A DNA stretch of 54,653 bases from a virus: positions 1-54,653 of IMG/VR virus record IMGVR_UViG_3300029132_000006; one strand, given 5' to 3'. A program made the translations under genes and the position numbers. Numbering within the stretch: the stretch's first letter is position 1; each line of letters begins with the position of its first letter. Below are positions 21,314 to 46,546 of this stretch, in pieces. Under the pieces are notes generated by a model, which was given only the letters and a program-made list of their open reading frames with translations, had not been told where the DNA came from and did no database searches.

Positions 21314-21352
21314 AATTTTTACCCTTTCCCACCCTATCGTCCATATAGGGAA

Positions 21353-21971: not shown

Positions 21972-22023
21972 ATCTTCTTACCTCCTAAAATTTGCAAAAA
22001 AATAAGAGCATTTCTGCTCTTTG

Positions 22024-24857: not shown

Positions 24858-25889
24858 TTACTTTCCGAACTTAGCAAGAACAACCTTTGAATCGTTGCTT
24901 AAGACTGCTGTATAGTGTTCATCGCCAGAGATAACAGTTGTCTTTGCAAGAATATCTCTGTCCGATTCAATCTCAACGCTTCTCTTCATATAGATTGTAA
25001 GTGCGTTCTCTTCCTCTGATACGCCATCTGCACCTGTGTCCTCGTTAGGGTCTTCTGCTGATACAATAACAATAGGACAAGCGTAGAACTCTGTTGTAAC
25101 AGCCTTTAACTTGCTACCTACCTTGATTTCCTTGTCCTTTGGCTTAAGCGTATGTGCAAGTGCTGTGTCAAGGTGAACATTAGTTGCATCCTCGCTTGTT
25201 GTATCAGCTACAACATTGATTGTTCCTGTTGAATCATCAAACTCATACTTAACTAACTTAACTTTCTTTGACTTAACAACCTGCGCTCCCGCAATAGAAC
25301 CGATAGTTCCATTCATAATTACATTAAGTGGGTACTTGTCATTGCTCTTGAAATCATCGTCATTAAGTAATGTAGCTTCCTGCGCCGGATTAATGAACAA
25401 TATCTTTGTAAGTGATGAATCTGATTCATCATCAAACTTGCTATTAGCCGCTACAACTGCTGAATAGCTGATAGGTGCTGCTGTTCCATCGTGATCAATA
25501 GGTGCTGTGCAAAGTGCGTCATAGCTGTCATTATCAACCTTTGCAGCGATTGACATAGCAATCTGATTGATAGCTGTACCAAGTGGGTCGCCATAACCAG
25601 ATAACACTGATTCGTCTGTAAGTTCTACTGCCTTACCTGCTTTCTTAACCTTTGCTTCTGTTGTAGATGTTGTAAGTACTGTTGTACCCATAGCAACACC
25701 TTCTGCTACATCCTGTGCATCACCTATATAAGCGTATTTTGGGACAACAATAGTGCTTCCCGGTCTGCCTACAAGTGTTGTATCAACTCTTGCAATAGGC
25801 GAAAACTTAATTTTCTTTGGTAACTTAGCTGATACCATATCAGCCATTACCTGTGGGTCTACTAAATTTGCTAACTTAGTCTGTGGCAT
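24858..25889 (-). CDS. Major capsid protein.
   Basis: 343 aa immediately after the scaffold gene, with a typical LANLVDPQVMADMV N-terminus. Confidence 0.75.
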   Translation of the reverse strand: MPQTKLANLVDPQVMADMVSAKLPKKIKFSPIARVDTTLVGRPGSTIVVPKYAYIGDAQDVAEGVAMGTTVLTTSTTEAKVKKAGKAVELTDESVLSGYGDPLGTAINQIAMSIAAKVDNDSYDALCTAPIDHDGTAAPISYSAVVAANSKFDDESDSSLTKILFINPAQEATLLNDDDFKSNDKYPLNVIMNGTIGSIAGAQVVKSKKVKLVKYEFDDSTGTINVVADTTSEDATNVHLDTALAHTLKPKDKEIKVGSKLKAVTTEFYACPIVIVSAEDPNEDTGADGVSEEENALTIYMKRSVEIESDRDILAKTTVISGDEHYTAVLSNDSKVVLAKFGK

Positions 25890-26614: not shown

Positions 26615-28207
26615 TTATTTATCTGTTCTGCTCTTATCTATAACTGGACTATTTTCTGTCTGGTCTGATAAGTCTTGCATTGTGCGGTCTTTGTTAGGCG
26701 ATTGTTCGCCATCTCCGCCCTCTGCTTGGTTCTGTGTGTCTTTGTTAATTATACTGTCTTGATATGCCTTAACCATCTTTCCGCTTCTCGCTACAACATC
26801 GTTAGGGTCATCAAAAAATGGAATTGCATCAACTGTATCTTTAAGACTAAATCCGTGGCTTATCAATGTCGCCATAGCATTAACCTTGGTTGACATTTCA
26901 TAAGTTTTTTGCCGTTTAATGTTAGGCTTTACATCTCTTGCCTTTAATTTAAGTAATGGGTTACTGCTACCAACATTGTTTGACAGCTTGATAGCTGCAA
27001 GAACAACTTTTATCTCTTCCATTTTGCAGCCATCAGTAATTAATTGCTGTTTTGCCGCTGCTGTTTCAGCCTGTGACCAGCCTGTCGCGTCCGACATTGC
27101 AACTCCTGTACTGCCACCGCTATTATCATTTCGTTGTGGCACATTACATTTCTGCAAGATTATCTGTCGCCTTGATTGGATATTGTTAAGCATACCTGTG
27201 TAATCGTAATTAATTGCAAGTGGCTCAACTATTGGAGTTTTGCCATCTGCTGATGTGTAGGTCTGCATCCATTCTCCAGATTTTGGTTTCCTTACTTTTT
27301 CAGTGATATGTGGTGTTCCGTCTTTATCAACTGTTGTTTCCTGTTCAACTGGGAAATCAACATCATTTGTGTGCCATACCGCCTGTGTGTTCTGTTCGAC
27401 ATCATTGGTAAAATCTGAAATGAGTAGGTTTAAGTTATCCATTTCAGATATTTGCCGTTCAAAACAGCCCATTCTATCAAATGACCTTGTATATTCAATA
27501 ATAGGAATTTTATGTAATGGATTCTCTTCCCCACTTCTCTCTAAAAATCCCCATTTTGTTTTTCCTTTTTCTGGTCCGTTTGTGATTTTTATCCCATCCG
27601 TAATTTCATAACGAATATCTTTTGTAAAACAGGTGTAATATCTTGCACCGTTATGTTTGTCTTTGATATAAGTGCCTGCAAGAATAACCCTCTTGTCACT
27701 ATAAGCTGTTGACCTTACAACAAATGTTGTTCTTGGGTCTAATACATCATATGTGAAATAGCTTTCCCCATCTTCATATTCTGTATTCACATCAATAAGG
27801 ACATAGCCAACACCGCCGATTTCAACATATCTTGCAAGCTCCTGTTGCTTTTGTCTTGCGTTCTGTGATTCGTAACAACTGTTTAATTCTGCTATAGCTT
27901 CTGTGAAATTAGAATCCTCATTGTCGCCATTTTGAACTAGCGTTATAGGATTTCCCCACTTAAAACCTAAATTAAACTCTGTGACCTCGTTAGCCACATT
28001 GTCACAGCACTCACAGTCAATGTCTGGTCTGTAAGTCTTTGGGTTCTTCCTAACTATTGGCTGTATTCCTGCGTCATAATCAAGAAGAAACTGTATTCTG
28101 TTGGAATTAATATCATGTTCCAAAATTGCTTCACGCAAAATTGGTATTATATTGTCAGGTGTTATTTCTTTTGCACCTGTATAAATAGCAATTCTTCCTG
28201 TCTGCAT
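26615..28207 (-). CDS. Portal protein (SPP1 gp6-like size class).
   Basis: 530 aa, positioned after terL. Confidence 0.75.
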   Translation of the reverse strand: MQTGRIAIYTGAKEITPDNIIPILREAILEHDINSNRIQFLLDYDAGIQPIVRKNPKTYRPDIDCECCDNVANEVTEFNLGFKWGNPITLVQNGDNEDSNFTEAIAELNSCYESQNARQKQQELARYVEIGGVGYVLIDVNTEYEDGESYFTYDVLDPRTTFVVRSTAYSDKRVILAGTYIKDKHNGARYYTCFTKDIRYEITDGIKITNGPEKGKTKWGFLERSGEENPLHKIPIIEYTRSFDRMGCFERQISEMDNLNLLISDFTNDVEQNTQAVWHTNDVDFPVEQETTVDKDGTPHITEKVRKPKSGEWMQTYTSADGKTPIVEPLAINYDYTGMLNNIQSRRQIILQKCNVPQRNDNSGGSTGVAMSDATGWSQAETAAAKQQLITDGCKMEEIKVVLAAIKLSNNVGSSNPLLKLKARDVKPNIKRQKTYEMSTKVNAMATLISHGFSLKDTVDAIPFFDDPNDVVARSGKMVKAYQDSIINKDTQNQAEGGDGEQSPNKDRTMQDLSDQTENSPVIDKSRTDK

Positions 28208-29013: not shown

Positions 29014-30741
29014 TTATACTGGACTTGACATAATTACTGTCTTTTTTACTCTATTTCCTCTTTTCATTCTTAATGCAAAATTTGAAAAAACATCCGGTAC
29101 ATCATCGTGCAAATTTTTACCAGATACTGAATATTTCAATAACCAACTCATCATCTCTGCATAATCGCTCTTGGGTTCATATAGGCTTCTATCTTTAAAC
29201 ACAATATGTTGCAATACCCAACTAGAACATTGAAATATTCTTGCTTCTTTGTTTGTTTCAGTTGCAGTGTCTGATATATTGCATAACCAGCCTTTTTCTT
29301 CTACTCGTTTTCTGACTTCATTTGCAACTCTATCTCCGCCTTGATTAGCTTCAAAATCGCAATCTTGTATTTCATTATCGACAATTAAATTTGCTGAATT
29401 TTCATATTGTTTTTCGTAATCTGCCGAATTGTTGCATATAGTATCAGTGCAGTAATACGTTCCCTCATATCCTTCAAATTCAACCAGGCAAGGGAACACA
29501 TAAAAATCAGTACCAGAGGATTTCGTGTCACATTGTCCAGTAATTCTTTTAATTCGTGTTTTAGGAAGTTCTTTATATCTCATTATTTTGTTTTCTGGAT
29601 AAAGCAATCCCTCACGTTCTATTGGATCTTGCTTATAAAGACATCTATAAGATATATCATCCATTGTCAGTGCTTGATCATTAAAAAATTCCACCGACAT
29701 TCCATTATATTCATAGTCAAAATTACTTTTCCCTGTTTTAGGGTCAATATCTGGAATCGAAATAATTTTTAACTTTGGGTCGTTTCCATAAAGCTCAATA
29801 ATATGTCCAATAATGTCTTTTGTGCTCCATCTGGTCATTATAATTATTTCTTTTACTTGTTCGTTTAGCTTTCTTTGCTTTAAATCGACTCCATAAATTC
29901 TCCATATTTTTTCAAGAATTATTGGATTAAGTGCTTCTTCAATAGAACCTATAAGGTCATCACAATATAAATAACGGTTAGTTCTAACCTTACCAGCATT
30001 CTTAGCTCCTATTGATGAGCATTGAATACTTGAAAATGCTTTGTATTTACCGAAATTAGCTTCTTGTGCCTGTGCATTTGTGCTTTGTAATGGTAAATTA
30101 GGGAAAATAACATTCCATTTATATTCTTTATCATCTGTTGTTATGTCAAGCACTCCTTTATAAAACTTTCCTGTAATTTCGTTGCTGTGAGAAAAGAAAA
30201 GGCTGTAATCTTTAGGGTGCTTGCCAATTATCCAAGAGCAAAAAAATTTTTCTAGTGTAGTTTTTTGCGTTCCTGGTGGCATAGAAATACATAATCTATT
30301 ATATTTGTCGTCTTCCAAATCTTGCATAGCTTGAATAAGCCCGTATTTATTAAGCTGTTTCATTTTTGGCTGATAAAATCTTTCACTCTCTTCTCTGTCT
30401 TTTTCAAGATAAAGCAAATAGCTGTGAAATAAGTGCGGAGCTTCAAGTAATAAGGTATCAAAATATCTATTAACTAAATCATTGTCTATATTGTTGTTGA
30501 ATGTATATTTTTCAAGTTCAAAAATATCTATGCCTATATCACGCATACAAGCCTTTTCTATGAGTTCTTTTGCCCTAGCCGTACATTTTAACATTGTGTC
30601 AATTTCGCCCTCATTCTTGGCAAGCTGGCACACGTTGTAGTAGGTTTCTATAATATTTTCATCTATTCCATTTTGGGATATGTATTTTTCGCAATCATCT
30701 ATCAGTTGATTTAATTCAGAATTCAAGAAAAGCACCTCCAC
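29014..30741 (-). CDS. terL: Terminase large subunit.
   Basis: Walker A PPGTQKTT, Walker B LYCDDL, and a TRW coupling motif. The true start may be the TTG at 30726, 8 nt after GGAGGTG. Confidence 0.85.
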   Translation of the reverse strand: MEVLFLNSELNQLIDDCEKYISQNGIDENIIETYYNVCQLAKNEGEIDTMLKCTARAKELIEKACMRDIGIDIFELEKYTFNNNIDNDLVNRYFDTLLLEAPHLFHSYLLYLEKDREESERFYQPKMKQLNKYGLIQAMQDLEDDKYNRLCISMPPGTQKTTLEKFFCSWIIGKHPKDYSLFFSHSNEITGKFYKGVLDITTDDKEYKWNVIFPNLPLQSTNAQAQEANFGKYKAFSSIQCSSIGAKNAGKVRTNRYLYCDDLIGSIEEALNPIILEKIWRIYGVDLKQRKLNEQVKEIIIMTRWSTKDIIGHIIELYGNDPKLKIISIPDIDPKTGKSNFDYEYNGMSVEFFNDQALTMDDISYRCLYKQDPIEREGLLYPENKIMRYKELPKTRIKRITGQCDTKSSGTDFYVFPCLVEFEGYEGTYYCTDTICNNSADYEKQYENSANLIVDNEIQDCDFEANQGGDRVANEVRKRVEEKGWLCNISDTATETNKEARIFQCSSWVLQHIVFKDRSLYEPKSDYAEMMSWLLKYSVSGKNLHDDVPDVFSNFALRMKRGNRVKKTVIMSSPV

Positions 30742-33159: not shown

Positions 33160-34113
33160 TCACTCCTTACTTTCGCACCAACTGCTCTTACAAGTGTGGT
33201 TCATAATATTAATCAAAACCTTTTCAGAAGAAAAGTGAACTAAGCTGTAATCACATTGTGCTGAAAACTTTGTATTGAAATATTCATCAACTAACATCTT
33301 GTAGTCTGTATTATCGTCCATATCACTTATAGCCGCATAATAGGTATCTGTATATCCGTCACGCTCTATGTCGGTTTCTTTTGTTAAATTATCTACCACT
33401 CTTGATAGAACCTTGTCCGTTAATGGGTAATGATATTTCCCAGTACATTCTCCGTGTTTATCTAAAAAGTATTTAAAGAATGCTTCTACATTTTCTTTGA
33501 GCGTTTTATCATTAGTCCAATCATAAGCTATCTTGCCAGCTCTACTTATCATTCTTTCCTCGGCAACTTCCCAATCACTTTGAGAGTATTCGCTTATCGG
33601 CTTAAACTCTTTCGCTTTTTTATCTTTGGGTAAAAAAGAATTGCACTGTTCTCTGTTAAGAGAATTACTTTTAGTATTTAATTCATTAGTATTTTGTATA
33701 TTAATATTTAATTCATCAGTACTTAATTCATTAGTATTTAATTGTCCGTGGTTTTCTACCTGTTGACATTCAACCCCTAGATTTTCTGTATCTTGTTTTT
33801 CTATTTTCTGTTTATATGGTTCTTCGTAAACCTCGTAGGTGTACTTTATTCTTCCACCATTGCTTTTTGTCGGGTTTTCCTTAGTAACCACAACATAATT
33901 ATTATCCCTTAACTCATTTAAAGCCGATTTAACAGCTGTTTCATTCTCTTTACTTATTGCAACTAACCCAGCTATTGAATAATCCCAATTATCGGGCAAT
34001 GAAAGCATTACAGACAATAATCCTTTTGCTTTCAAGCTTAAGCTCTTATCCCTTAAATGAGTATTACTCATAACTGTGTAATTTTTTGTTTTATGCACTC
34101 TGATTGTTGCCAT
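33160..34113 (-). CDS. Winged-helix DNA-binding protein, replication-initiator-like, carrying internal iteron-like DNA repeats.
   Basis: N-terminal YTVMSNTHLRDKSLSLKAKGLLSVMLSLPDNWDYSIAGL...ALNELRDNNYV pattern seen in Firmicutes Rep/DnaD-like wHTH proteins. Three copies of TAATTCATYAGTA lie at about 33679-33740. Confidence 0.5.
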   Translation of the reverse strand: MATIRVHKTKNYTVMSNTHLRDKSLSLKAKGLLSVMLSLPDNWDYSIAGLVAISKENETAVKSALNELRDNNYVVVTKENPTKSNGGRIKYTYEVYEEPYKQKIEKQDTENLGVECQQVENHGQLNTNELSTDELNINIQNTNELNTKSNSLNREQCNSFLPKDKKAKEFKPISEYSQSDWEVAEERMISRAGKIAYDWTNDKTLKENVEAFFKYFLDKHGECTGKYHYPLTDKVLSRVVDNLTKETDIERDGYTDTYYAAISDMDDNTDYKMLVDEYFNTKFSAQCDYSLVHFSSEKVLINIMNHTCKSSWCESKE

Positions 34114-34236
34114 ATTGAATACCTCCGCTTGATATTATTTATGTATGCCTGTGATACACACTCCGCTTAATCAATAAAAACAACAAACAGGCACAGCGGA
34201 AGTGCTTTTCGGTCTGCATCACCTAGTTTGTTGTAA

Positions 34237-34308
34237 TCGGATAGACAGGACTTGAACCTGTGACTACTTGAATAAATCAAGCGTTACTCCCAACTGAACT
34301 ACTATCCG
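34237..34308 (-). tRNA. tRNA with anticodon UUA (reads UAA; suppressor-type), or a degenerate tRNA.
   Basis: Hand fold: acceptor CGGATAG/CTATCCG plus A73; anticodon stem GCTTG/CAAGT; loop ATTTATT; T-arm ACAGG-TTCAAGT-CCTGT. Atypical features are an imperfect D-stem (GTTC...GTAAC) and U at position 37. Confidence 0.55.
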
Positions 34309-34746
34309 TCAACTTGTAAGAATTTCTGACAAGTTGAAATAAAAAAGACTAGCACAGAGAGATTAAACAATTCACATTTATAAATCACTTTGGAGGTCAT
34401 TTATACGCTTAAAAATATTGTTTTGAGTGGATATAAAGTGCTAGTCTTAACAGCAGTATAGGCTATGACACCTATAACAGGTCGTGGCAAAGCTGGATGG
34501 AAGTGATTACGCCCGTGCAGTTTGGCTGTTCAAAGAAAGTGGCTTCGCTCGCTGTCTATCCCTTAAGGATAACTGCTGATTATGAAATATTTGAAATAAT
34601 TACTACGCATATTTGTGTGGGATATGCGTAAAACCTCACGGACTTTCTGACGGTCCTTAACAGCTCTTGCTATGAGGTGAAAGGAGAACTTAATGCTAGT
34701 AAACCAATAAGTCCTGTAAAGGCACAAGTGTAATTAAACACTTGAA
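34309..34746 (-). ncRNA. ORF-free, helix-rich 438-nt spacer between two tRNAs; a candidate large structured ncRNA.
   Basis: At least nine helices of 5-11 bp can be drawn, including nested long-range pairs (listed in the findings). No credible ORF on either strand. Confidence 0.35.
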
Positions 34747-34818
34747 CTACCCCTGTGGGATTTGAACCCACGATACAGGAATCAAAATCCTGTGCCTTGA
34801 CCACTTGGCTAAGGGGCA
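34747..34818 (-). tRNA. tRNA-Gln (anticodon UUG).
   Basis: Hand fold: acceptor TGCCCCT/AGGGGTA with U1-A72 and G73 (Gln-like); anticodon arm CAGGA-TTTTGAT-TCCTG; T-arm GTGGG-TTCAAAT-CCCAC. Confidence 0.8.
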
Positions 34819-34823
34819 ATATG

Positions 34824-35928: not shown

Positions 35929-36615
35929 TTAAATTGTGTCTGAATTGTTTACAGCGTTTATCTGCTGTTTATCGGTTAATTGTGTATTGTTTTGGCTCAA
36001 TTGCTGGCGTATTTCTGCGGCTGTAAGAGGTGTTTTATTGCTGCTTTCTCTGCTGACGCCTGGAAGATTCCAACCAAAACGACGATTCATGACCGCAAGC
36101 TGTCCGACTGGGTTCTTACCGGACCAGAGCCGAGCCTCTCCACTAGATTCATAATCTTTTGACAGTTTTTGATATAAATTGTTTGCCGATGTACTTAGTT
36201 GTGGCGTTCTGCTCTCATTTCCCCAATTATATACAATATCTTCTCTTATACCAGTTAATTTACAATATCCTGATATAGTACATATTTTATTATACTTATA
36301 ACACATATATATATAATAATCTGCTATATAATTAAGATACTCATAATTATAACTATTACAATTACTATTATTTATATTACTATATTGATTATTATAATTA
36401 TTATTATTATATCCCTGTAATTTACCCTTTAATTTTAACCTATTAGTGCCTTTAAAAGTATTGTTATATACATAAATCAAGGCGGCATAAAAAAGGGATT
36501 GCGGAGCCGCTGCCATATCTTCAACGTTTTCATCTTTGCAAAATCTTTTGAAATACATATCAATTTCATTTTCAAAAATTTCTTGACTTTCTGGTGCTTC
36601 CTGTACTTTCTCCAT
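35929..36615 (-). CDS. terS: Terminase small subunit-like protein with an N/Y-rich low-complexity insertion.
   Basis: Start refined to MEKVQEAP behind AAAGGGGAA. ISGYCKLTGIREDIVYNW and GKNPVGQLAVMNRRFGWNL resemble conserved TerS blocks (recalled from memory). Confidence 0.55.
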   Translation of the reverse strand: MEKVQEAPESQEIFENEIDMYFKRFCKDENVEDMAAAPQSLFYAALIYVYNNTFKGTNRLKLKGKLQGYNNNNYNNQYSNINNSNCNSYNYEYLNYIADYYIYMCYKYNKICTISGYCKLTGIREDIVYNWGNESRTPQLSTSANNLYQKLSKDYESSGEARLWSGKNPVGQLAVMNRRFGWNLPGVSRESSNKTPLTAAEIRQQLSQNNTQLTDKQQINAVNNSDTI

Positions 36616-36832
36616 CTGTTCCCCTTTCTGCTGGAGCTTATCCAGCTTATTGTAATATATACTAATAACATAAAAATAACCCAATAATATTTTTAATATT
36701 ATCGGGTGTAAATCTTATATATTTAATTATTAAAATAATATAGCATAAATATATTATAAAGTCAATTTTAATTTTAAGCTTGACATAATGTAAAAATCTG
36801 TTTATTATGTTAAGCATAAACAGTAACAAAAA

Positions 36833-39956: not shown

Positions 39957-40103
39957 TTACCCCGAAATTTTTTGGCAACATTTTTCTGTATAAATCAATG
40001 CTTTACTTGAATACCGGCATTGACTAAGCTCATATATCAATAATTCTTTTGTCATAGTCGGATTAGTCTTTTGAATTATCTTTAACAACTCATCAATGCT
40101 CAT
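39957..40103 (-). CDS. Hypothetical 48-aa protein, last gene of the cargo operon.
   Basis: The ATG overlaps the upstream stop (TAATG); GGAGAGTGGG lies upstream. Confidence 0.4.
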   Translation of the reverse strand: MSIDELLKIIQKTNPTMTKELLIYELSQCRYSSKALIYTEKCCQKISG

Positions 40104-40423
40104 TATCCCACTCTCCTAACTGCTCCAAGCACCATATCAACAATGTCAAATACTTCATCTCCATAAGTTGCCACAAAATCGCACAATATTTCTTCCTGTT
40201 CGATAGGCAAATACACATCATAGGACATACAGATTGCGTGGCATACTTCGTGTATCAGCACTTTGCGTTGCATAAATCCACGCAAGGCATTTGACAGATA
40301 AATTGTATGCGTATTTCTATCTGTTACGCCTAGCACAAAAACATTGTCTGACCGCTTTAATTCACCCGAATTTGAATTTTTATATTGTACTCGCCACATT
40401 GTACCATTAATGTTAAAAATCAT
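40103..40423 (-). CDS. Small HExxH zinc-metallopeptidase-like protein (SprT/ImmA-like).
   Basis: Start refined behind GAAAGGAG. The motif is KVLIHEVCHAI. Confidence 0.55.
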   Translation of the reverse strand: MIFNINGTMWRVQYKNSNSGELKRSDNVFVLGVTDRNTHTIYLSNALRGFMQRKVLIHEVCHAICMSYDVYLPIEQEEILCDFVATYGDEVFDIVDMVLGAVRRVG

Positions 40424-40482
40424 CTGTATGCTCCTTTCTGAATGAAATAGGCTATGAATATTGCTACCCATAGCCCTTAAAA

Positions 40483-41097
40483 TCATATCTTAGATACAAG
40501 AGTACTTAACTTTGTTCTAAGCAAGTTCTTCTCTTCTGCCGACATATCAGCTACCATACCTGTAATATCGCTTGCAAGTTCCTTGGTGTAGCTGTCAAGC
40601 GACTTCATCTTGTGTTCCTTATCTTCTGGTGTATTAGCCTTGTGCATTTCCTTAGTTTCTGTGTAGTTTCTCTTTGCTCTGTCGTAATTACTTTCAGACA
40701 TTGGCTCTGTATAGTACATCTTGCCATAATCTCTATCCATATCCCTCATATGCTCTGCTTCTGGGTACATATGGTAATATGGCGGCTCTTCATATCCTCT
40801 GCGGTATGTTCCTTTGCCTTTTGGGGCAAATCTGCCATTTGCATAGCGGTAGTGGTCATAGTATCTTCTGTCCGGATAATCTTCGTACTGTTCAAGCATA
40901 CGCATAATATCCTCATTATCTTCTGACTTTTCCATAGCTTCAACAATTCTGTAATCCTTGTCAAAGCAAGCTATGTTCTTCGCTATTTCTGTAAAGTCCT
41001 TTAAATCGTCAAGGTTCTGCCCCTCAAAGCTATCTAATCCGATTGCTTCAACTTTTGCCTTGACACATTCCATAATCTGTTTAGCCCATTTGTGCAT
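40483..41097 (-). CDS. Tyr/Asp/Arg/Glu-rich hypothetical protein.
   Basis: Central segment YEDYPDRRYYDHYRYANGRF...YRRGYEEPPYYHMYPEAEHMRDMDRDYGKMYY. Confidence 0.55.
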   Translation of the reverse strand: MHKWAKQIMECVKAKVEAIGLDSFEGQNLDDLKDFTEIAKNIACFDKDYRIVEAMEKSEDNEDIMRMLEQYEDYPDRRYYDHYRYANGRFAPKGKGTYRRGYEEPPYYHMYPEAEHMRDMDRDYGKMYYTEPMSESNYDRAKRNYTETKEMHKANTPEDKEHKMKSLDSYTKELASDITGMVADMSAEEKNLLRTKLSTLVSKI

Positions 41098-41101
41098 AAT
41101 A

Positions 41102-41521
41102 TCAAGCCTCCCTTACTGCAATCAAATTACTGTTCTGTACTTCAATAGCCTGTGTAGATGTATTCTGTACCGCTACTGTACTGCAACAGCCACAAGGTAC
41201 ATCAACGTATGCCTGTGAACTAATATTCTGTAAATTTTGTGCTGCGGCTGGTGTTACAATCATTCGTGTTGACTGTAAAGGCTCTCCGTCTACTGCAATG
41301 GCAAGTGAAATAGCTCCAACTGTACCACCTGTCGGAATCTGAATGTTGCCGGAATACGATACCAAAAATCTAGCCTTGCACTGATTTGTGATACCTCTTA
41401 GCTTGATAATTCCGCTTCCCTGTCTGTGTACTATACATTTGCTACCGCATACCGGTGTTTCTGTAAATGCAACATCTTCTCCGGCGGCAACTGTTTGTAA
41501 TGCAATTCCTGTTATTTCCAT
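41102..41521 (-). CDS. All-beta protein, possibly a BclA-C-terminal/C1q-like jelly roll.
   Basis: Start refined to MEITGIALQ behind AGAGAGGT. The pattern of alternating hydrophobic residues and the VPCGCC motif resemble exosporium C1q-like domains. This is recalled from memory and is weak. Confidence 0.35.
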   Translation of the reverse strand: MEITGIALQTVAAGEDVAFTETPVCGSKCIVHRQGSGIIKLRGITNQCKARFLVSYSGNIQIPTGGTVGAISLAIAVDGEPLQSTRMIVTPAAAQNLQNISSQAYVDVPCGCCSTVAVQNTSTQAIEVQNSNLIAVREA

Positions 41522-41550
41522 TATCTTTACCTCTCTTTCAAAAAAATAAG

Positions 41551-41582
41551 GGCAAACATTATAGTCTGCCCTTTGATTATAA
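41551..41582 (-). terminator. Internal attenuator/terminator of the cargo operon.
   Basis: AAGGGCA/TGCCCTT stem followed by TATTTTTTT on the minus strand. Confidence 0.55.
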
Positions 41583-41643
41583 GTAATACTGCTTAGCAGA
41601 CATAATCGAGTTAAACTCAATTAAGATACTCAATTATTCAGTT

Positions 41644-42414
41644 TTAGCAGCCGCATCCTGTATTGCAACCACATCCATAAACATAAGCATTAGGATTAGG
41701 CACAACATAAGCTGGAATAGCCGTAGGATTTACAGAGTTGATAATCTGCTGTGTCTGAGCTGCCATCTGAGTTGTAAGAAGTGCGTTCTGTCTATCCTGT
41801 GATGCGGCTCTGCGTAAATCGTTGTTCTCTGCTGTAAGTGTTGCTATCTTATCATTTGTTAAGAAATCAAGGATAGCTCTCGTTCCTGCCTGCTGGCTGT
41901 CGATAATATCTCTTGTGTTGTTGCACATTGTGTTCTGTAAAGCACAAGTGTTAGTTGCCATGTTGTAGTTTACGCCTTGAATAGCTTCTCTTGTCTCACA
42001 GCAACAGTTAGCAAGCTGTGCCTGTAATGCGTTTGTATTCTGCATATTAGCGACTGTATCAGCGTTAATAGCTTGCTGGATACCGAATCCGGTCTGCATG
42101 ATATTTGTGTTAATACCATTGAAACCTGTGAGCATACTATTGTTCATAGCATAGAAGCCGTCACAAAGTCCGTTAGAAATGCCATCTAACTTGCTGATAA
42201 CTGCCTGATTGTCAAAACCTCTTTGTATAGCTGAATCAGTGTAGCCTGCGCCGTTGCCATTTCCACCGAAACCGCCCCAGCCGTTATTGCCCCAGCCAAA
42301 GATTAAGAGAATTACAATCCACCATGCACCATCGCCCCACATACCATCGTTATTACGATTATTGCCTGTTACTGCGGCAATATCTGCGAGACTAACTCCG
42401 TTTGAATTAAACAT
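41644..42414 (-). CDS. Membrane protein with a G/N/W-rich segment, an N/Q-rich helical region, a CCCE motif and a C-terminal GCGCNTGCGC tail.
   Basis: Start refined to MFNSNGVS, 7 nt after GGAGGT. TM helix AWWIVILLIFGWG is followed by NNGWGGFGGNGNG. Confidence 0.6.
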   Translation of the reverse strand: MFNSNGVSLADIAAVTGNNRNNDGMWGDGAWWIVILLIFGWGNNGWGGFGGNGNGAGYTDSAIQRGFDNQAVISKLDGISNGLCDGFYAMNNSMLTGFNGINTNIMQTGFGIQQAINADTVANMQNTNALQAQLANCCCETREAIQGVNYNMATNTCALQNTMCNNTRDIIDSQQAGTRAILDFLTNDKIATLTAENNDLRRAASQDRQNALLTTQMAAQTQQIINSVNPTAIPAYVVPNPNAYVYGCGCNTGCGC

Positions 42415-42485
42415 CTTGTTTACCTCCATTTATTTTATTAACAAATGGGATAACCGGTCATTATGTGCGCACAACCCAAAATGTC

Positions 42486-42713
42486 CTAATTCATCATACC
42501 CTTAATATCATTAAGGTTTATTCCTTGTGTATTCATAAAATTACTTAAAATTTGCTCTGCGCCTTGCGTGTTTCCACTGTTTATCTGATTAAGCAAGTTT
42601 TTTGCCATAGGATTTCCACGCTGTGCCGACTGTTGTAAACAATTCATTGCCATTTGCTGTGGATTCCGAATTGACTTAAGTTGATTTATAGTTTGAATTA
42701 ACTGCTGATTCAT
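42486..42713 (-). CDS. Q/N-rich 75-aa protein.
   Basis: Track ORF with an ATGA overlap to the upstream gene. Confidence 0.55.
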   Translation of the reverse strand: MNQQLIQTINQLKSIRNPQQMAMNCLQQSAQRGNPMAKNLLNQINSGNTQGAEQILSNFMNTQGINLNDIKGMMN

Positions 42714-43255
42714 TCTTCATCACCGCCCTTACTTTGAGTTCTTGATGTTTTTCTCTGTGTTCCTAAAGATTTATCAAATCTATTTTCCAACTGCCCTATT
42801 TTCTCCGATAATTCCTCAAACTTATTCAGAAATAGCTGTGTGCTTTCGTCTGATAGGGTAAATTTAGCGTTTTCTGTATTAGCCATAGAATTTACTGTCT
42901 GATTATCTTTAGGGGCTGTATAAGGCTTATACACAACTGTCTTAATTGTTCCGTCAGCATTCCAACCCTTAACATAAATTTCCGACATATCCTGCTTAGG
43001 GAAAAATGCCATTGAGCCATCCATAGGCACTTCATTTGCATTAATATTTTCAACTGTCTGTACTATTCTTCCGTTAATGCCTGCTATCTGTTGTGGCATA
43101 ACCTGTTGATTTGCTAAGGACATTTGTGTCCCTGCCACTGGCTGCTGTAAGCTCTGCTGATAATTTTGTAAAAAGTTCATTCTATCCATATATGGATTTT
43201 GAGATTGCATATAAGAATTATTCATCATAGGCATTGCTTGATAAGGATTGTTCAT
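42710..43255 (-). CDS. Protein with a prion-like Q/N/M/P-rich N-terminus and a globular C-terminal half.
   Basis: MNNPYQAMPMMNNSYMQSQNPYMDRMNFLQNYQQSLQQ... followed by INGRIVQTVENINANEVPMDGSMAFFP...IYVKGWNADGT. Confidence 0.6.
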   Translation of the reverse strand: MNNPYQAMPMMNNSYMQSQNPYMDRMNFLQNYQQSLQQPVAGTQMSLANQQVMPQQIAGINGRIVQTVENINANEVPMDGSMAFFPKQDMSEIYVKGWNADGTIKTVVYKPYTAPKDNQTVNSMANTENAKFTLSDESTQLFLNKFEELSEKIGQLENRFDKSLGTQRKTSRTQSKGGDEE

Positions 43256-43379
43256 TGTCTGCCTCCTCTAAAACTTCCTCGATTGCGTGGATAACAAGAG
43301 ATAATGTCACTAAGTCAAGTTTCTGCAATTCTTCTTTGCTTAAGATTTTTTCTCTAACTTCATCAGAAAACATTCGCAT
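43218..43379 (-). CDS. Hypothetical 53-aa protein, possibly the first gene of the cargo operon.
   Basis: ATG just after GAGAGGT (short spacing) and a TATAAT at 43394-43399. It overlaps the next gene by 38 nt. Confidence 0.3.
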   Translation of the reverse strand: MRMFSDEVREKILSKEELQKLDLVTLSLVIHAIEEVLEEADNEQSLSSNAYDE

Positions 43380-43408
43380 TACCTCTCTTTCTGATTATAT
43401 TTTTGCAT

Positions 43409-43441
43409 AAAAAAAGAGAAGAACATTATCAAGTTCTTCTC
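43409..43441 (-). terminator. Integrase transcript terminator.
   Basis: GAGAAGAAC/GTTCTTCTC stem followed by T7 on the minus strand. Confidence 0.65.
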
Positions 43442-43482
43442 ATATTTATGTCATACATCAAGGCTTTATTTAGTTTTAATTT

Positions 43483-43759
43483 ACTACACACTTTTAATCC
43501 TGTCACTACACACTTACTACACACTTTTGCTATTGAAATACATAGAAATACATAGAAATATGTGGAAATTGATAATCAGTCCAATGCCACTTAAAAACCC
43601 TTAAATACCGCATTTATCGTGCTTTTTGTTAAGTTCATAAGGAGTTGTCTGATATACGTAATAAGTTTTCCAAGTTAAATATATTATACATCTTAACCCC
43701 CATTGTTTTGTGGTTTTTTTCAATTTTAATGTGTGTAGTACTACACACTTACTACACAG
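43483..43759. other. Probable attP region with arm-type repeats.
   Basis: ACTACACACTT occurs at 43483, 43505, 43516 and 43740. ACTACACAG is at 43751, inverted GTGTGTAGT at 43731, and GAAATACATA tandem repeats at 43535-43564. The region directly abuts the int 3' end. Confidence 0.55.
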
Positions 43760-44939
43760 CACTTTTTTTAAAATCAACAATGTTGTCCTTGTCTTTCACA
43801 ATTCTTTCAATATCTACTGCCGCTCTTTCTTCTGTTACGTGTGTATATAAATCCATTGTCATTTTAAGAGTTGCATGACCTAAATATGATTGAACAACTT
43901 TCGGCTCTATGCCCGACTCAAAACATCTTGTCGCAAACGTATGTCTTAAAGTATGTCCACTAAACACAGGAAATTCGTTATCAAAACTTCTTGCAAGATT
44001 TATCTGCTTAACAATAGCTTTAATTGAATCTGAATAAATCTGCGAATTGAGAGGCGTGTTATAACTTGTCACAAACAAATAATTGTTCTGCTCTTTAGGT
44101 CTTTTGCACTTTACAATATCCTTTAATTCGAACTGCTTTTCAAGATATTTAATGCATTCGCTGTTAATAGGTACTTGTCTATAACTCTGTTTGGTTTTAG
44201 GCGGCTCAATGTGAAAAGTTTTGCACTTATCATCAAGGTATTTTTGATACACAAGTGTCTTATTAACATCAATATACCCCTCATCTAAGTGTATATCATT
44301 AGGTGTAAGTGCAAACAGTTCTCCTGGGCGCAAGCCTGTATTAACTGCCACATTATACAAATTATCGTAAAATGTCCCTTTACTTGCTTCTAAAAACTCT
44401 ATCTGTTGTTTTGCTGTTAGTGTGAAAGCTTTAAGTTCTTTATCAGCCCTAAGCTTTACACCTTTTGCTGGATTTTTAATCATTAAGTCATCTTCTATTG
44501 CTCTACTGAACATATCATTAAGTATAACCTTAATCTTGTTCTGCCGTTCATATTTATAATTGTCATCAGCTATTTTATCAATTAGTGTTTGAATATCTGA
44601 TTTAACAAAGGAATTTATGTTGCGATTTCCTAAAAAAGGTGATATATTTTTATTGTATATGTGAGTGTATTCTCTAAGGGTATTAGGGCGTACACTTTTC
44701 TTTTTGTACACTTCTATCCAACGATTAAACCAATCGTCCAGCTTAATATCATCTCTAATGCTTGTAAATTGAATATTTTCTGCTATTGCAACAGCCAATT
44801 CTTTTTTAACTTCTGATAACTTTGTGCCATAAATATATTTAATCTTATTAAATCTATCTTTATATCTCCCTTGATACACACCGTCCTTTCGCTGCGACAA
44901 TCCTACACCTAGTTCTTTACCTTTTAAATCTTTTCCCAT
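43752..44939 (-). CDS. int: Tyrosine recombinase / phage integrase.
   Basis: C-terminal HTLRHTFATRCFESGIEPKVVQSYLGHATLKMTMDLYTHV (R..H..R..Y catalytic signature). Confidence 0.9.
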   Translation of the reverse strand: MGKDLKGKELGVGLSQRKDGVYQGRYKDRFNKIKYIYGTKLSEVKKELAVAIAENIQFTSIRDDIKLDDWFNRWIEVYKKKSVRPNTLREYTHIYNKNISPFLGNRNINSFVKSDIQTLIDKIADDNYKYERQNKIKVILNDMFSRAIEDDLMIKNPAKGVKLRADKELKAFTLTAKQQIEFLEASKGTFYDNLYNVAVNTGLRPGELFALTPNDIHLDEGYIDVNKTLVYQKYLDDKCKTFHIEPPKTKQSYRQVPINSECIKYLEKQFELKDIVKCKRPKEQNNYLFVTSYNTPLNSQIYSDSIKAIVKQINLARSFDNEFPVFSGHTLRHTFATRCFESGIEPKVVQSYLGHATLKMTMDLYTHVTEERAAVDIERIVKDKDNIVDFKKSAV

Positions 44940-45021
44940 TCAAAAGCTCCTTTCTTTTGAAAAAAGCCTTGATATAGACAACCACATATTACTACATCAA
45001 GGCATATATTTCAATATATCT

Positions 45022-45420
45022 CTATATTTCGTTACTTTTTTCTATATAGTGCTCAAACTCCTTACGCTTAACAAGCCTCTTATTCCCAACTCTTAAAACA
45101 AATGGACAGCTAATTTCATTAAGCATACTGCTGATTCTATTAATTCCGATATTGCTATATTCGGACGCTTCTTCAACTGTTAATGTAACTTTTTCCCATA
45201 TAGGAATTGTTTTAACCATGTCATCAGTCCTTTCTATCTTGATTTTCATATCCTTAATTCTTCTTGAAATTGTTGCTTTGGATAACATAAGTCTTTGGCT
45301 AACCTGTTCTAAGCTCATATTACCCACAAGCAACTTGAAAATTCTTAGTTCTTCTTCTGTAAAATTGGCATTTTTAATTATCTCATCAAGTTCCGGCTTA
45401 GTCAGTTCTGAAAACTTCAT
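45022..45420 (-). CDS. xis: Fusion of a sigma-70 region-4/LuxR-like HTH and an excisionase-type (MerR-like) HTH.
   Basis: N-terminus FTEEELRIFKLLVGNMSLEQVSQRLMLSKATISRRIKDM. C-terminus LTVEEASEYSNIGINRISSML...FVLRVGNKRLVKRKEFEHYI. Confidence 0.55.
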   Translation of the reverse strand: MKFSELTKPELDEIIKNANFTEEELRIFKLLVGNMSLEQVSQRLMLSKATISRRIKDMKIKIERTDDMVKTIPIWEKVTLTVEEASEYSNIGINRISSMLNEISCPFVLRVGNKRLVKRKEFEHYIEKSNEI

Positions 45421-45432
45421 AAGCCTATCTCC

Positions 45433-45711
45433 TTATTTAAACTTAATATGTTCTATTCCTGTTTCTTCGTATAACTGATTAACAAGCTCTTCTGCTGTGA
45501 ATAATCCGTCATTATAGTTATCTATAAGCACTTTGAGTTCTCTCTGTACTTTTGTTAATCTCTGTTGTCCGAAACCGAACTTATCGTGCAGCACCCATAA
45601 AATTAATATTAATGCTGATTCAAAATTTTTCTTCTGCTGTTCATTGCTAATTCTATTCATCTGAACACGTAACATTTGTTCCTTAAACTTTTTCTGTTCT
45701 GACTTACTCAT
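45433..45711 (-). CDS. Hypothetical protein.
   Basis: Track ORF. Confidence 0.55.
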   Translation of the reverse strand: MSKSEQKKFKEQMLRVQMNRISNEQQKKNFESALILILWVLHDKFGFGQQRLTKVQRELKVLIDNYNDGLFTAEELVNQLYEETGIEHIKFK

Positions 45712-45720
45712 ACATACTCC

Positions 45721-45867
45721 TTATTTATCAAGTATTTTGACAATTTTCTTTATTATTTCTTGTACTGAAACTTGGTTTTGAACATTTTCTTCTAAAACTT
45801 TTTGCATTTCTTTCAGAATTAAAGTGTGGATATGCATTGAGTACTCTAATTCTTGTATTCTTTGCAT
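45721..45867 (-). CDS. Hypothetical 48-aa protein.
   Basis: Fills the gap, with a purine-rich RBS region. Confidence 0.35.
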   Translation of the reverse strand: MQRIQELEYSMHIHTLILKEMQKVLEENVQNQVSVQEIIKKIVKILDK

Positions 45868-45895
45868 AATTTCATCTTTCTCTTCTTCCGTTTGT

Positions 45896-46540: not shown

Positions 46541-46546
46541 TGAAAA

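What the first reader, a model, noticed from the sequence alone, without database searches (positions are those of the whole stretch)
34237..34308. Phage tRNA with a UUA anticodon (ochre-suppressor type) in a genome that uses TAA as a normal stop
- **Fold.** The 72-nt sequence folds as a cloverleaf: a 7-bp acceptor stem (CGGATAG/CTATCCG), discriminator A, a 5-bp anticodon stem, and a canonical T-arm (ACAGG-TTCAAGT-CCTGT).
- **Anticodon.** The 7-nt anticodon loop is A-U-U-U-A-U-U, so positions 34-36 are UUA, complementary to the UAA stop codon.
- **Coding context.** The genome itself is clearly standard-code. Long intact ORFs such as the 1325-aa and 1320-aa tail proteins, and many other genes, end in TAA.
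- **Possible readings.** It is therefore not simple genome-wide recoding. It could be a timed read-through device, a tool against host or competitor translation, or a decaying tRNA.
- **Oddities.** The D-stem is imperfect (GTTC...GTAAC) and position 37 is U rather than a purine.
Basis: seen in the sequence. Interest (0 to 1): 0.65.

Follow-up and report, generated by a model that had tools for sequence, protein, structure and literature searches.

The report
Phage tRNA-like gene, collapsed anticodon loop
A conserved tRNA-shaped gene in a temperate gut phage is called an ochre suppressor only because its anticodon arm is two bases short; nothing in the phage or about 200 relatives is recoded to match it, so it is most likely a former decoding tRNA kept as a structural RNA module.

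Summary
The object is real. It lies at 34308->34237 on the minus strand. ARAGORN calls it tRNA-Stop(UUA) and Rfam scores it 51.6 bits as a tRNA.

Its anticodon arm has 15 nt instead of 17. Rfam's alignment, homology with related tRNAs and thermodynamics all give a 5-bp stem (CUUGA/UCAAG) with a 5-nt loop (UUUAU). The 7-nt loop with UUA needs nucleotides 26 and 44 recruited as a base pair.

The gene is not a decaying singleton. Hundreds of related loci from a human-gut phage family (probable host Lachnospiraceae) carry it, and a T-stem pair changes in a compensated way.

The central loop bases vary among near-identical phages:
- UUA about 65%
- UCA about 21%
- UUG and UAA rare
- about 8% have a long, non-anticodon arm on the same acceptor, D and T scaffold

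The genome uses the standard code, with TAA ending 40 of 83 genes. No conserved gene carries an in-frame stop, and no gene's stop codon tracks the loop type.

The gene is always fused, through a UUA spacer, to an int-alpA-like structured leader/terminator. In other relatives that leader follows other tRNA-like ends instead, one class being a bare acceptor-plus-T-arm minihelix.

My best reading is a non-decoding tRNA-like module (0.45). A weak, polymorphic suppressor remains possible (0.25).

The parts
34237..34308 (-). 72-nt tRNA-like gene. ARAGORN calls it tRNA-Stop(UUA). Acceptor 34308-34302 / 34244-34238, discriminator A at 34237, no encoded CCA.
   Evidence: ARAGORN. Rfam tRNA 51.6 bits. 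Conserved in relatives with a compensated T-stem pair.
34266..34282 (-). Anticodon arm, GCUUGA-UUUAU-UCAAGU. The five loop bases are 34276-34272. ARAGORN's 'UUA' is 34275-34273. The polymorphic bases are 34274 (U, C or A) and 34273 (A or G).
   Evidence: Rfam alignment with 2 loop positions deleted. MFE and pair probabilities. Variant table. Coordinates.
34165..34233 (-). int-alpA-like structured RNA, 3 nt after the tRNA 3' end. P1 34233-34226 / 34188-34181 followed by a U run. P2 34223-34211. Conserved CGAAAAGC. P3 34205-34191 (loop 34201-34195).
   Evidence: Rfam RF02996, 46.1 bits against 35.8. Allelic covariation in P2 and P3 among relatives. Always preceded by a tRNA-like 3' end.
34123..34168 (-). 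5' UTR of the next gene with two copies of AAGCGGAG (34168-34161 and 34130-34123). Both are complementary to the P3 loop. The second overlaps the Shine-Dalgarno GGAGG (34126-34122).
   Evidence: 94 of 96 unique leaders have a hexamer complementary to their own P3 loop and 63 of 96 have two. With mismatched alleles the counts are 110 of 480 and 14 of 480.
33160..34113 (-). Downstream ORF of 317 aa: a winged-helix / DnaD-like 'replication initiation' type protein. This slot is mosaic in relatives.
   Evidence: PHROGs and Pfam HTH_36. Alternative alleles (HNH, GIY-YIG-like, small Cys-rich) sit behind the same leader.
34746..34819 (-). Canonical tRNA-Gln(UUG), the first gene of the phage tRNA cassette.
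   Evidence: ARAGORN. Rfam 66.3 bits.
34309..34745 (-). 437-nt spacer between the two tRNAs. Relatives carry tRNA-Tyr(GUA) and/or tRNA-Ser(GCU) here. It holds a 14-nt-arm hairpin at 34309-34337 abutting the tRNA 5' end.
   Evidence: tRNA repertoires of relatives. No Rfam hit here at E <= 1. Inverted repeat I1.

Best explanation
The gene is a tRNA-derived RNA that has lost canonical decoding.

**What it is**
- Its acceptor stem and T arm resemble the tRNA-Ile(UAU) that holds the same last-before-packaging position in the nearest GenBank relative.
- Its anticodon stem, variable loop and T arm match a tRNA-Asn(GUU) of close relatives.
- Its anticodon loop has shrunk from 7 to 5 nt.
- The 'UUA' is simply the middle of that small loop, read on the assumption of a symmetric 7-nt loop.

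**What selection keeps (shown)**
Selection keeps the tRNA body, above all the acceptor/T-arm domain. That domain is joined by a UUA spacer to an int-alpA-like leader/terminator that controls the next gene.

**Proposed mechanism (inferred, not shown)**
- The tRNA-like unit is transcribed together with the leader.
- The host tRNA-processing enzymes cut it out. RNase P cuts at the 5' end. RNase Z cuts after the discriminator, where the U-rich, CCA-less trailer fits a Firmicute RNase Z site (from general knowledge of RNase Z).
- This cut defines the 5' end of the leader RNA.
- The central loop bases are then free to vary.
For: 1. **Arm anatomy.** The arm has 15 nt. Rfam deletes two loop positions. 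The ensemble strongly favours the 5-nt loop. The 27-43 contact behaves like 26.44. U stands where purine 37 should be.
2. **Ancestry.** The nearest annotated phage tRNAs are mostly tRNA-Asn. The arm, variable loop and T arm match a relative's tRNA-Asn(GUU), which has a normal 7-nt loop. The acceptor stem and T arm match the Dulem virus 39 tRNA-Ile(UAU), loop CUUAUAA.
3. **No footprint of suppression.** Coding density is 0.88 under the standard code, and stops are TAA 40, TGA 24, TAG 19. Conserved genes carry no in-frame stops. No gene's stop codon follows the loop type across about 85% of the genome. Only k-mers inside the loop associate with loop type over 22 kb.
4. **Non-decoding alleles at the same locus.** Long-arm variants of 80-84 nt share the acceptor, D and T scaffold.
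5. **Constant neighbour.** All 244 int-alpA-like leaders found follow a T arm, a 3' acceptor strand, a discriminator and a UUA or UUG spacer. Upstream elements include a degenerate Cys(ACA) tRNA, a 106-nt tRNA-like element with a 7-bp acceptor, and a 42-nt acceptor-plus-T-arm minihelix. Rfam does not call several of these classes tRNA.
6. **Conservation across mosaic flanks.** Nucleotide diversity is 0.024 in the gene and 0.12-0.5 in the flanks. This sample was conditioned on the tRNA sequence.
Against: 1. ARAGORN's cloverleaf has helices of standard length and a 7-nt loop with U33. Natural tRNAs with an A32-U38 combination still keep open loops, so decoding is not physically excluded.
2. Within the loop only the two central positions vary. 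About 90% of 72-nt copies carry a stop anticodon.
3. UCA occurs on at least 10 sequence backgrounds, whereas the sense variant UUG occurs on one. That one lineage also carries G19A, which would break the G19-C56 elbow contact. This asymmetry is what one would expect if a charged, decoding tRNA tolerated stop anticodons but not sense ones.
4. Processing by RNase P and RNase Z, co-transcription, and absence of aminoacylation are all inferred. No RNA data could be consulted.
5. Three upstream classes (27 loci) have only weak 5' acceptor pairing. The constant T-arm neighbour could therefore partly reflect recombination junctions inside tRNA genes.
6. The relatives are very close (97% mean column identity), so the power to see constraint is low.
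Confidence: 0.45

Rival explanations
1. It is a real but weak nonsense suppressor. The A-U pair at the loop base opens, UUA pairs with UAA (and UAG by wobble), and a host synthetase charges the tRNA. Low-level read-through results. Close relatives have switched specificity to UGA (UCA allele). The target is not the phage's own gene ends but nonsense damage, host genes or co-infecting elements.
For: - ARAGORN's model has standard helices and an invariant U33.
- Variation is limited to the two central bases, and about 90% of copies are stop anticodons.
- UCA appears on at least 10 backgrounds. The only sense-anticodon lineage of any size (UUG) also has G19A.
- It sits in a cassette of otherwise ordinary tRNAs.
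- Suppressor tRNAs have been reported in standard-code phages close to recoded ones (bioRxiv 10.1101/2021.08.26.457843).
Against: - The loop is 5 nt by homology and by thermodynamics, and purine 37 is missing.
- TAA ends 48% of genes, including 14 late genes in a row, with no enrichment of back-up stops.
- Switching UUA to UCA leaves no trace in stop-codon usage.
- U34 to C (amber) is never seen.
- About 8% of relatives carry an arm that cannot decode, and others lack the gene.
- No TAA reassignment is known in phages (PMC13037316).
Confidence: 0.25
2. It is an anti-defence RNA: a tRNA mimic that titrates or misdirects a host tRNA-targeting nuclease or modification enzyme. The central loop bases would be under diversifying selection.
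For: - The tRNA cassette varies in content among close relatives (Gln, Tyr, Ser, Asn, Cys, Trp and others), including unusual anticodons such as AUU, AAU, AAC and ACA.
- The nearest GenBank relative carries an RtcB RNA ligase next to its tRNA cluster.
- The U/C polymorphism is shuffled onto many backgrounds.
- Phage tRNAs are known to counter anticodon nucleases (PMC10264068, PMC11464382, PMC11555353; listed).
Against: - The known cases are functional sense tRNAs that replace a cleaved host tRNA. This one matches no sense tRNA loop.
- No nuclease or partner gene was identified in the window.
- Long-arm and minihelix alleles would not mimic an anticodon loop.
- This idea was not tested directly.
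Confidence: 0.12
3. It is a functionless relic of a tRNA gene, carried along because it lies between a useful tRNA cassette and a useful leader.
For: The anticodon loop is collapsed, the D stem is imperfect, purine 37 is absent, and other relatives show truncated or degenerate tRNAs at the same place.
Against: - There are 211 copies in 34 variants with 94% of stem cells paired, and stem changes are mostly G-U-compatible or compensated (49-63 C-G to U-A).
- G18, U8, A14 and the core T-loop bases are invariant, and G19 is nearly so.
- It is retained next to several different flanking alleles.
Confidence: 0.12
4. It is part of a recoding or programmed read-through system acting on the phage's own genes: either TAA read as sense genome-wide, or one gene extended past its TAA at a set time.
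For: - The anticodon call is complementary to TAA.
- Some same-frame gene pairs are separated by one TAA, for example portal and the next gene at 26615.
Against: - Standard-code coding density is 0.88, against 0.94 if TAA is read as sense. The size of that gain was not tested against chance; TAA is the commonest stop.
- Conserved genes carry no in-frame stops.
- The portal, capsid, tail and lysin genes end in TAA in both UUA-type and UCA-type phages. UCA-type phages still end genes in TGA.
Confidence: 0.03

Closest known systems
Phage-encoded suppressor tRNAs of stop-codon-recoded gut phages (crAss-like, Lak, Agate, Jade and others; TAG to Gln, TGA to Trp)
   Same: A phage tRNA-cassette gene that tRNA finders call complementary to a stop codon, in a low-GC gut phage. 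Suppressor tRNAs also occur in some standard-code relatives of recoded phages.
   Different: - The cognate stop here is TAA, which no phage is known to reassign and which is this genome's commonest terminator.
- There are no in-frame stops.
- The triplet is polymorphic.
- The loop is two bases short and lacks purine 37.
Classical bacterial ochre suppressors (mutant tRNA-Lys, Gln, Tyr or Leu with anticodon UUA; general knowledge)
   Same: The UUA triplet preceded by U33, and the expectation of weak, tolerated read-through.
   Different: Those keep a 17-nt arm, a modified purine 37 and the identity elements of their parent tRNA. This RNA has none of these in recognisable form.
Non-decoding tRNA-like elements used as processing or structural modules (for example mascRNA at the MALAT1 3' end, tRNA-linked spacer RNAs, the Bacillus cereus pseudo-tRNA 'tRNA-Other'; recalled from general knowledge)
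   Same: A tRNA-shaped fold joined to another functional RNA. The acceptor/T-arm domain is conserved while the anticodon region is free or aberrant.
   Different: Processing has not been shown here. The partner is a phage leader/terminator of the int-alpA family, and most alleles still look like almost complete tRNAs.
Phage tRNAs with altered anticodon loops that evade host anticodon nucleases (PMC10264068)
   Same: A phage tRNA cassette in which loop positions differ from the norm.
   Different: Those retain 7-nt loops and sense anticodons and still decode. This one has a 5-nt loop and no sense identity.
tRNA-Ile(UAU) of Dulem virus 39 (PP511791), the last tRNA before the packaging genes
   Same: The position in the genome. 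Acceptor stem CGGAAAG/CUUUCCG+A against CGGAUAG/CUAUCCG+A. T arm AUAGG-UUCGAGU-CCUAU, identical stem to that of some relatives' alleles.
   Different: The Dulem tRNA is canonical (73 bits, loop CUUAUAA). The window's copy has a different anticodon stem and a loop of 5 nt.

Membership tests
Canonical elongator tRNA (Rfam RF00005) | Score above the family gathering threshold; cloverleaf with a 7-bp acceptor stem and a 5-bp T stem with a 7-nt T loop | tested here: met
   51.6 bits against 29. ARAGORN call. 94% of stem cells paired in 34 variants, with one compensated pair.
Canonical elongator tRNA (Rfam RF00005) | Conserved core nucleotides: U8, A14, G18 G19, U54 U55 C56, G53-C61, G15-C48 | tested here: met
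   Read directly from the sequence in Rfam's register. Invariant or nearly so in relatives.
Canonical elongator tRNA (Rfam RF00005) | 17-nt anticodon arm: 5-bp stem and 7-nt loop with U33 and purine 37 | tested here: not met
   The arm is 15 nt. Rfam deletes two loop positions. The 5-nt-loop form is favoured, with the closing pair at p = 0.98. U stands at the position 37 of the ARAGORN register.
Canonical elongator tRNA (Rfam RF00005) | Regular 4-bp D stem | tested here: not met
   There are three pairs, then either a C.U mismatch or a bulged U (GUUC...G-U-AAC). Pair 13-23 is unpaired in 34 of 34 variants. Long-arm relatives have a perfect GUUC/GAAC.
Canonical elongator tRNA (Rfam RF00005) | Aminoacylation and use on the ribosome | not testable with these tools
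   No RNA or charging data.
Suppressor tRNA serving stop-codon reassignment in a phage | Anticodon complementary to a stop codon | tested here: inconclusive
   True only in ARAGORN's symmetric 7-nt register. Other homology registers read UAU (Ile) or UUU with A37.
Suppressor tRNA serving stop-codon reassignment in a phage | In-frame cognate stop codons in conserved genes, with low coding density under the standard code | tested here: not met
   Coding fraction is 0.88 under the standard code. No internal stops were found in real genes across the relatives' loci examined.
Suppressor tRNA serving stop-codon reassignment in a phage | The cognate stop is avoided as a terminator | tested here: not met
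   TAA ends 40 of 83 genes, including 14 consecutive late genes.
Suppressor tRNA serving stop-codon reassignment in a phage | Anticodon conserved among relatives, or co-varying with their stop usage | tested here: not met
   UUA 34, UCA 11, UUG 2, UAA 1 and long arm 4 in 52 portal-defined relatives. No covariation with any gene's stop codon.
int-alpA RNA (Rfam RF02996), the adjacent element | Score above the gathering threshold, with helices supported by covariation | tested here: met
   46.1 bits in the window and 45-54 bits in relatives, against 35.8. P2 and P3 have several compensated alleles.
int-alpA RNA (Rfam RF02996), the adjacent element | Genomic association with integrase or alpA genes in proteobacterial islands or prophages | tested here: not met
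   Here it lies between a tRNA-like gene and a winged-helix ORF in a Firmicute-type phage. The integrase is 9.5 kb away, with its own arm-type repeats. An E. coli example lies just 3' of a tyrosine integrase gene.
Anti-defence phage tRNA (nuclease-resistant replacement tRNA) | Sense anticodon matching a host tRNA that a defence nuclease cleaves, with a functional 7-nt loop | tested here: not met
   The loop is 5 nt, and the majority triplets are UUA and UCA.

The most novel reading that the evidence does not exclude
The RNA is an active stop-codon-reading tRNA whose specificity toggles between UAA and UGA among otherwise near-identical temperate phages. It would act not on the phage's own gene ends but on host or competitor translation termination, or on nonsense damage to the phage. 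That would make it a polymorphic 'termination-interference' device in a standard-code virus.
Probability: 0.15. Interest if true: 0.8.

Novelty: new variant of a known kind. Interest (0 to 1): 0.45.

Why it matters
- **Annotation.** Automatic tRNA finders label this gene 'tRNA-Stop' or 'tRNA-SeC' in hundreds of gut-phage contigs. Surveys that count suppressor tRNAs to infer code change or its precursors will count it. This analysis shows the call rests on a loop two bases short and has no genomic footprint, so such calls need a check of loop length and register.
- **RNA architecture.** The locus shows a recurrent arrangement: a tRNA-like acceptor/T-arm domain fused to an int-alpA-type leader. 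The leader's hairpin loop co-varies with sites at the ribosome-binding site of the next gene. If the tRNA-like part serves as a processing or stability module, this would be a bacterial-virus counterpart of tRNA-like processing signals known elsewhere. It would also give the orphan int-alpA motif a testable function.
- **If it suppresses after all.** It would be the first natural UAA-reading tRNA maintained in a standard-code phage lineage.

Tried and rejected
1. **Genome-wide or gene-specific recoding.** I compared ORF statistics under four codes and listed same-frame ORF pairs across single stops. I ran tblastn of all window proteins against the fetched related loci, scoring internal stops and terminal stop codons by tRNA loop type. 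Nothing covaries. Apparent internal stops fell in spurious small ORFs or in the false N-terminal extension of ORF 35929-36684.
2. **A cis partner for the polymorphic loop base.** A 15-mer association scan over 22-kb loci found only the loop itself. Counts of loop-complementary hexamers in the flanks were confounded by a start-codon allele.
3. **The tRNA as the phage attP.** Rejected. Arm-type repeats (AGTGTGTAGTA, four copies) lie beside the integrase at about 43.5-43.75 kb. No second copy of the tRNA 3' end exists in the window.
4. **tRNA adjacency as a general property of int-alpA RNAs.** Not so in the E. coli example examined.
5. **A bacterial tRNA with the same 3' half.** The only hit among species-representative genomes is a related phage contig in a Lachnospiraceae MAG.
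6. **Remnant tRNAs in the 437-nt spacer.** None found at E <= 1. The 9-10-nt inverted matches to the tRNA 3' end upstream are about the size my own rough estimate gives for chance matches in this region.
7. **tRNA-related enzymes among neighbouring ORFs.** None found by Pfam, NCBIfam or PDB sequence search. ORF 35929-36684 remains unassigned.
9. **T-box induction, reverse-transcription priming and frameshift suppression.** Considered and dropped. No sense specifier, no reverse transcriptase and no candidate site were found.
10. **Early-region test.** This had little power, because that gene module is mosaic and no UCA-type locus was recovered.
Full report
**1. The observation**

The window carries two tRNA genes, both on the minus strand. 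They are tRNA-Stop(tta) at 34308->34237 and tRNA-Gln(ttg) at 34819->34746. Rfam scores them 51.6 and 66.3 bits against a threshold of 29.

The 72-nt RNA reads CGGAUAGUAGUUCAGUUGGGAGUAACGCUUGAUUUAUUCAAGUAGUCACAGGUUCAAGUCCUGUCUAUCCGA.

The two programs draw the anticodon arm differently.
- ARAGORN pairs GCUUG with CAAGU and leaves the loop AUUUAUU. That gives no nucleotide 26 and a 4-nt variable loop.
- Rfam keeps G26, pairs CUUGA with UCAAG, leaves a 5-nt loop UUUAU (two model positions deleted) and a 5-nt variable loop UAGUC. In that register G15-C48 and G46 fall at their canonical places.

Three lines of evidence favour the Rfam register.
- The minimum-free-energy fold is a 6-bp stem with a 5-nt loop.
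- The A-U pair that must open to expose seven bases has probability 0.98, and the open form is 2.4 kcal/mol less stable.
- Among 34 sequence variants the ARAGORN-specific 'pair' 27-43 is G.U 28, A-U 3 and non-pair 3. This is typical of the 26.44 contact rather than of a helix.

The object is therefore real, but it is two bases short in the anticodon arm. The UUA reading depends on one register.

**2. The genome**

The window is a temperate siphovirus-type genome of about 55 kb, with almost all genes on the minus strand. The assigned genes are:

| Gene | Coordinates |
|---|---|
| Large terminase | 29014-30741 |
| Portal | 26615-28207 |
| Capsid | 24858-25889 |
| Large tail proteins | 16477-20454 and 10259-14221 |
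| Endolysin | 8808-9914 |
| Repressor-like genes (plus strand) | 7482-8455 |
| Anti-repressor | 6510-7307 |
| RecT | 862-1746 |
| SbcC-like | 2065-3999 |
| Tyrosine integrase | 43752-44939 |

- Arm-type repeats beside the integrase mark the attachment site there, not at the tRNA.
- The nearest GenBank record is Dulem virus 39, from lemur faeces (terminase 55% identical).
- IMG/VR holds hundreds of close relatives, most from one metagenome record set (3300045988) that I take to be human gut; GenBank terminase relatives come from human fecal samples.
- The only match among species-representative genomes is a related phage contig in a Lachnospiraceae MAG.
- The code is standard. The coding fraction is 0.88, and stops are TAA 40, TGA 24 and TAG 19. 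Fourteen consecutive late genes end in TAA.

**3. The gene in relatives**

The same gene occurs in 211 fetched loci as 34 sequence variants. The loci are not dereplicated by contig. It is the last gene of a variable cassette: Gln(UUG), then optionally Tyr(GUA), then optionally Ser(GCU), then this gene.

The cloverleaf is maintained.
- 94% of stem cells are paired.
- Most stem changes are G-U-compatible.
- T-stem pair 49-63 switches from C-G to U-A.

In a sample conditioned on the tRNA sequence, diversity inside the gene (0.024) is far below that of its mosaic flanks (0.12-0.5).

The most variable position of the gene is the centre of the loop. In an unbiased sample of 80 loci chosen by their portal gene, 52 carried the gene:

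| Loop type | Loci |
|---|---|
| UUA | 34 |
| UCA | 11 |
| UUG | 2 |
| UAA | 1 |
| 80-84-nt form with a long irregular hairpin in place of the anticodon arm | 4 |

- The long forms keep the same acceptor, D and T arms. Their arms have terminal loops such as GGUAAUG or AAUA and cannot present an anticodon.
- UCA sits on at least 10 different tRNA backgrounds. It occurs with all three alleles of a hairpin 55 nt away. This points to recurrent change or an old shuffled polymorphism.
- UUG sits on one background, which also carries A9G and G19A.

**4. Tests for recoding or programmed read-through**

I translated all 83 window ORFs against the related loci fetched in five IMG/VR scans. Those scans were anchored on the rep-like gene, the tRNA 3' half, the portal gene, an early gene and the endolysin gene. 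I recorded internal stops and the terminal stop codon for each tRNA loop type.

- Conserved genes carry no in-frame stops. The few apparent ones lie in spurious ORFs or in a false N-terminal extension.
- No gene's terminator follows the loop type. The portal, capsid, tail and lysin genes end in TAA in both UUA-type and UCA-type phages. UCA-type phages still end several genes in TGA.
- A 15-mer association scan over 22 kb (31 UUA against 11 UCA) recovers only the loop itself.

Coverage is about 85% of the genome. Power is weak in the mosaic early region. In the tail and lysis region, tRNA type was assigned by k-mer linkage between loci rather than by contig name.

**5. Ancestry**

- By blastn the nearest annotated phage tRNAs are mostly tRNA-Asn.
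- A tRNA-Asn(GUU) present in some relatives has the identical anticodon stem (CUUGA/UCAAG), a near-identical variable loop and T arm, and a normal loop CUGUUAA.
- The acceptor stem and T arm also closely match the canonical tRNA-Ile(UAU) of Dulem virus 39. That tRNA occupies the same last-before-packaging position (CGGAAAG...CUUUCCGA, loop CUUAUAA).

Either way, the ancestor had a 7-nt loop, and this lineage has five.

Three homology registers are possible, and each tells a different story. The stem is symmetric about the central base, so none of them can be presented canonically.

| Register | Triplets read |
|---|---|
| Symmetric 7-nt loop | UUA and UCA (stop) |
| Aligned on the Ile(UAU) loop, CUUAU(AA) | UAU, CAU and AAU (all isoleucine-type) |
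| Anticodon followed by a purine at 37 | UUU and UUC, with A or G at 37 |

**6. The constant neighbour**

Three nucleotides after the discriminator begins an RNA that Rfam assigns to the int-alpA family. It scores 46 bits in the window and 45-54 bits in relatives, against a threshold of 35.8. Its parts are:
- P1, CAACAAAC/GUUUGUUG, followed by a U run;
- two internal hairpins, which exist in several compensated alleles;
- a conserved CGAAAAGC.

Every one of the 244 copies found in the fetched loci is preceded by a T arm, a 3' acceptor strand, a discriminator and a UUA or UUG spacer. The upstream element varies:

| Upstream element | Loci |
|---|---|
| The 72-nt gene | about 190 |
| Long-arm form | about 7 |
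| Degenerate tRNA-Cys(ACA) | 7 |
| 106-nt tRNA-like element with a 7-bp acceptor stem | 7 |
| 42-nt acceptor-plus-T-arm minihelix | 3 |
| Three classes with a T arm but weak 5' pairing | 27 |

Rfam does not call several of these classes tRNA.

The gene after the leader is mosaic: winged-helix 'replication initiator'-like, HNH, GIY-YIG-like or a small Cys-rich protein.

The P3 loop of the leader co-varies with two hexamers in the following 5' UTR, and the second hexamer abuts the Shine-Dalgarno sequence. There are five specificities: AGCGGA, TAAGGC, TCGTGG, TCACAG and TCGTAG. 94 of 96 unique leaders have at least one matching site and 63 of 96 have two. With mismatched alleles the counts are 110 of 480 and 14 of 480. 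In the window these sites are at 34168-34161 and 34130-34123.

**7. Interpretation**

*Shown*
- The gene is conserved and tRNA-shaped.
- Its anticodon arm is aberrant.
- Its 'anticodon' is polymorphic without any genomic counterpart.
- Non-decoding alleles replace it at the same locus.
- A tRNA-like 3' domain always precedes the leader.

*Inferred*
- The unit works as a tRNA-like processing or stability module for the leader. RNase P would cut at the 5' end, and RNase Z would cut after A73, ahead of a U-rich, CCA-less trailer.
- Decoding has been lost.

I put this reading at 0.45.

The main rival is a weak true suppressor, at 0.25. It draws on three things: the restriction of variation to the two central bases, the predominance of stop triplets, and the damaged state of the one sense-triplet lineage.

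The remaining readings are:
- an anti-defence decoy, at 0.12, which is in keeping with the variable tRNA cassette and with the RtcB ligase beside the tRNA cluster of Dulem virus 39;
- an inert relic, at 0.12;
- recoding of phage genes, at 0.03.

**8. Comparison with what is known, and novelty**

Surveys of gut phages report TAG and TGA reassignment with matching suppressor tRNAs. They also report occasional suppressor tRNAs in standard-code relatives, and no TAA reassignment.

This gene fails the defining tests of that class apart from the nominal triplet. It also fails the anticodon-arm criterion of a canonical tRNA. It works more like the tRNA-like processing or structural elements known from other systems, but membership there is untested.

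I rate it a new variant of a known kind and moderately interesting. It has practical value as a warning about automatic 'suppressor tRNA' calls, and it offers a side lead on the function of int-alpA-type RNAs.

Noticed in passing
window 34165-34233 (-) with targets at 34168-34161 and 34130-34123; relatives L001-L357: The int-alpA-like RNA has a P3 hairpin loop that co-varies, across five specificities, with two hexamers in the downstream 5' UTR. The second hexamer abuts the Shine-Dalgarno sequence (94 of 96 leaders match, against 23% for mismatched alleles). This suggests antisense or anti-RBS control of whichever gene follows. I know of no function assigned to this Rfam family; the two papers that mention it were not read. 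It has not been reported in Firmicute-type phages to my knowledge.
   Followed up: partly
relatives, e.g. L029 5780-5882, L060 1090-1133, L162 300-406: In some relatives, tRNA-like elements that neither ARAGORN nor Rfam calls precede the same leader. They include a 42-nt acceptor-plus-T-arm minihelix and a 106-nt element with a 7-bp acceptor stem and a large insert.
   Followed up: partly
relatives, e.g. L012, L056, L129: The tRNA cassette of this phage family holds other tRNAs with unusual anticodons. One Asn-type body carries AUU, AAU or AAC. A Cys-type body carries ACA with a disrupted anticodon stem. A Cys(GCA) has C instead of U at position 33.
   Followed up: no
window 34309-34745 (-): The window lacks the tRNA-Tyr(GUA) and tRNA-Ser(GCU) that many relatives carry between tRNA-Gln and this gene. 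The 437-nt spacer has no Rfam hit. It ends in a 14-nt-arm hairpin (34309-34337) that abuts the tRNA 5' end.
   Followed up: partly
window 43480-43750 (-): Four copies of AGTGTGTAGTA, one of them in a palindrome, lie just downstream of the integrase gene. They are probably arm-type integrase sites of attP.
   Followed up: no
window 8808-22976 versus 40000-54000: Stop-codon usage differs by module. Fourteen consecutive late (tail and lysis) genes all end in TAA, whereas early genes use TGA much more often.
   Followed up: no
L439 (Dulem virus 39, PP511791, 51000-59751): The nearest GenBank relative has, upstream of its terminase, tRNAs Gln(UUG), Ser(GCU), Ser(UGA) and Ile(UAU). It also has an RtcB RNA ligase gene, a type II hammerhead ribozyme (59 bits) and a RAGATH-27 RNA (77 bits).
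   Followed up: no
window 33160-34113 and the equivalent slot in relatives: The slot behind the leader is a mosaic hot spot. It holds several unrelated N-terminal winged-helix domains on a shared C-terminal domain, or HNH, GIY-YIG-like or small Cys-rich genes.
   Followed up: partly
window 35929-36684 (-): This conserved ORF has no match in PHROGs, Pfam, NCBIfam or PDB. Its listed TTG start is false, because relatives have stops in the first 23 codons. The true start is probably the Met at codon 24.
   Followed up: partly
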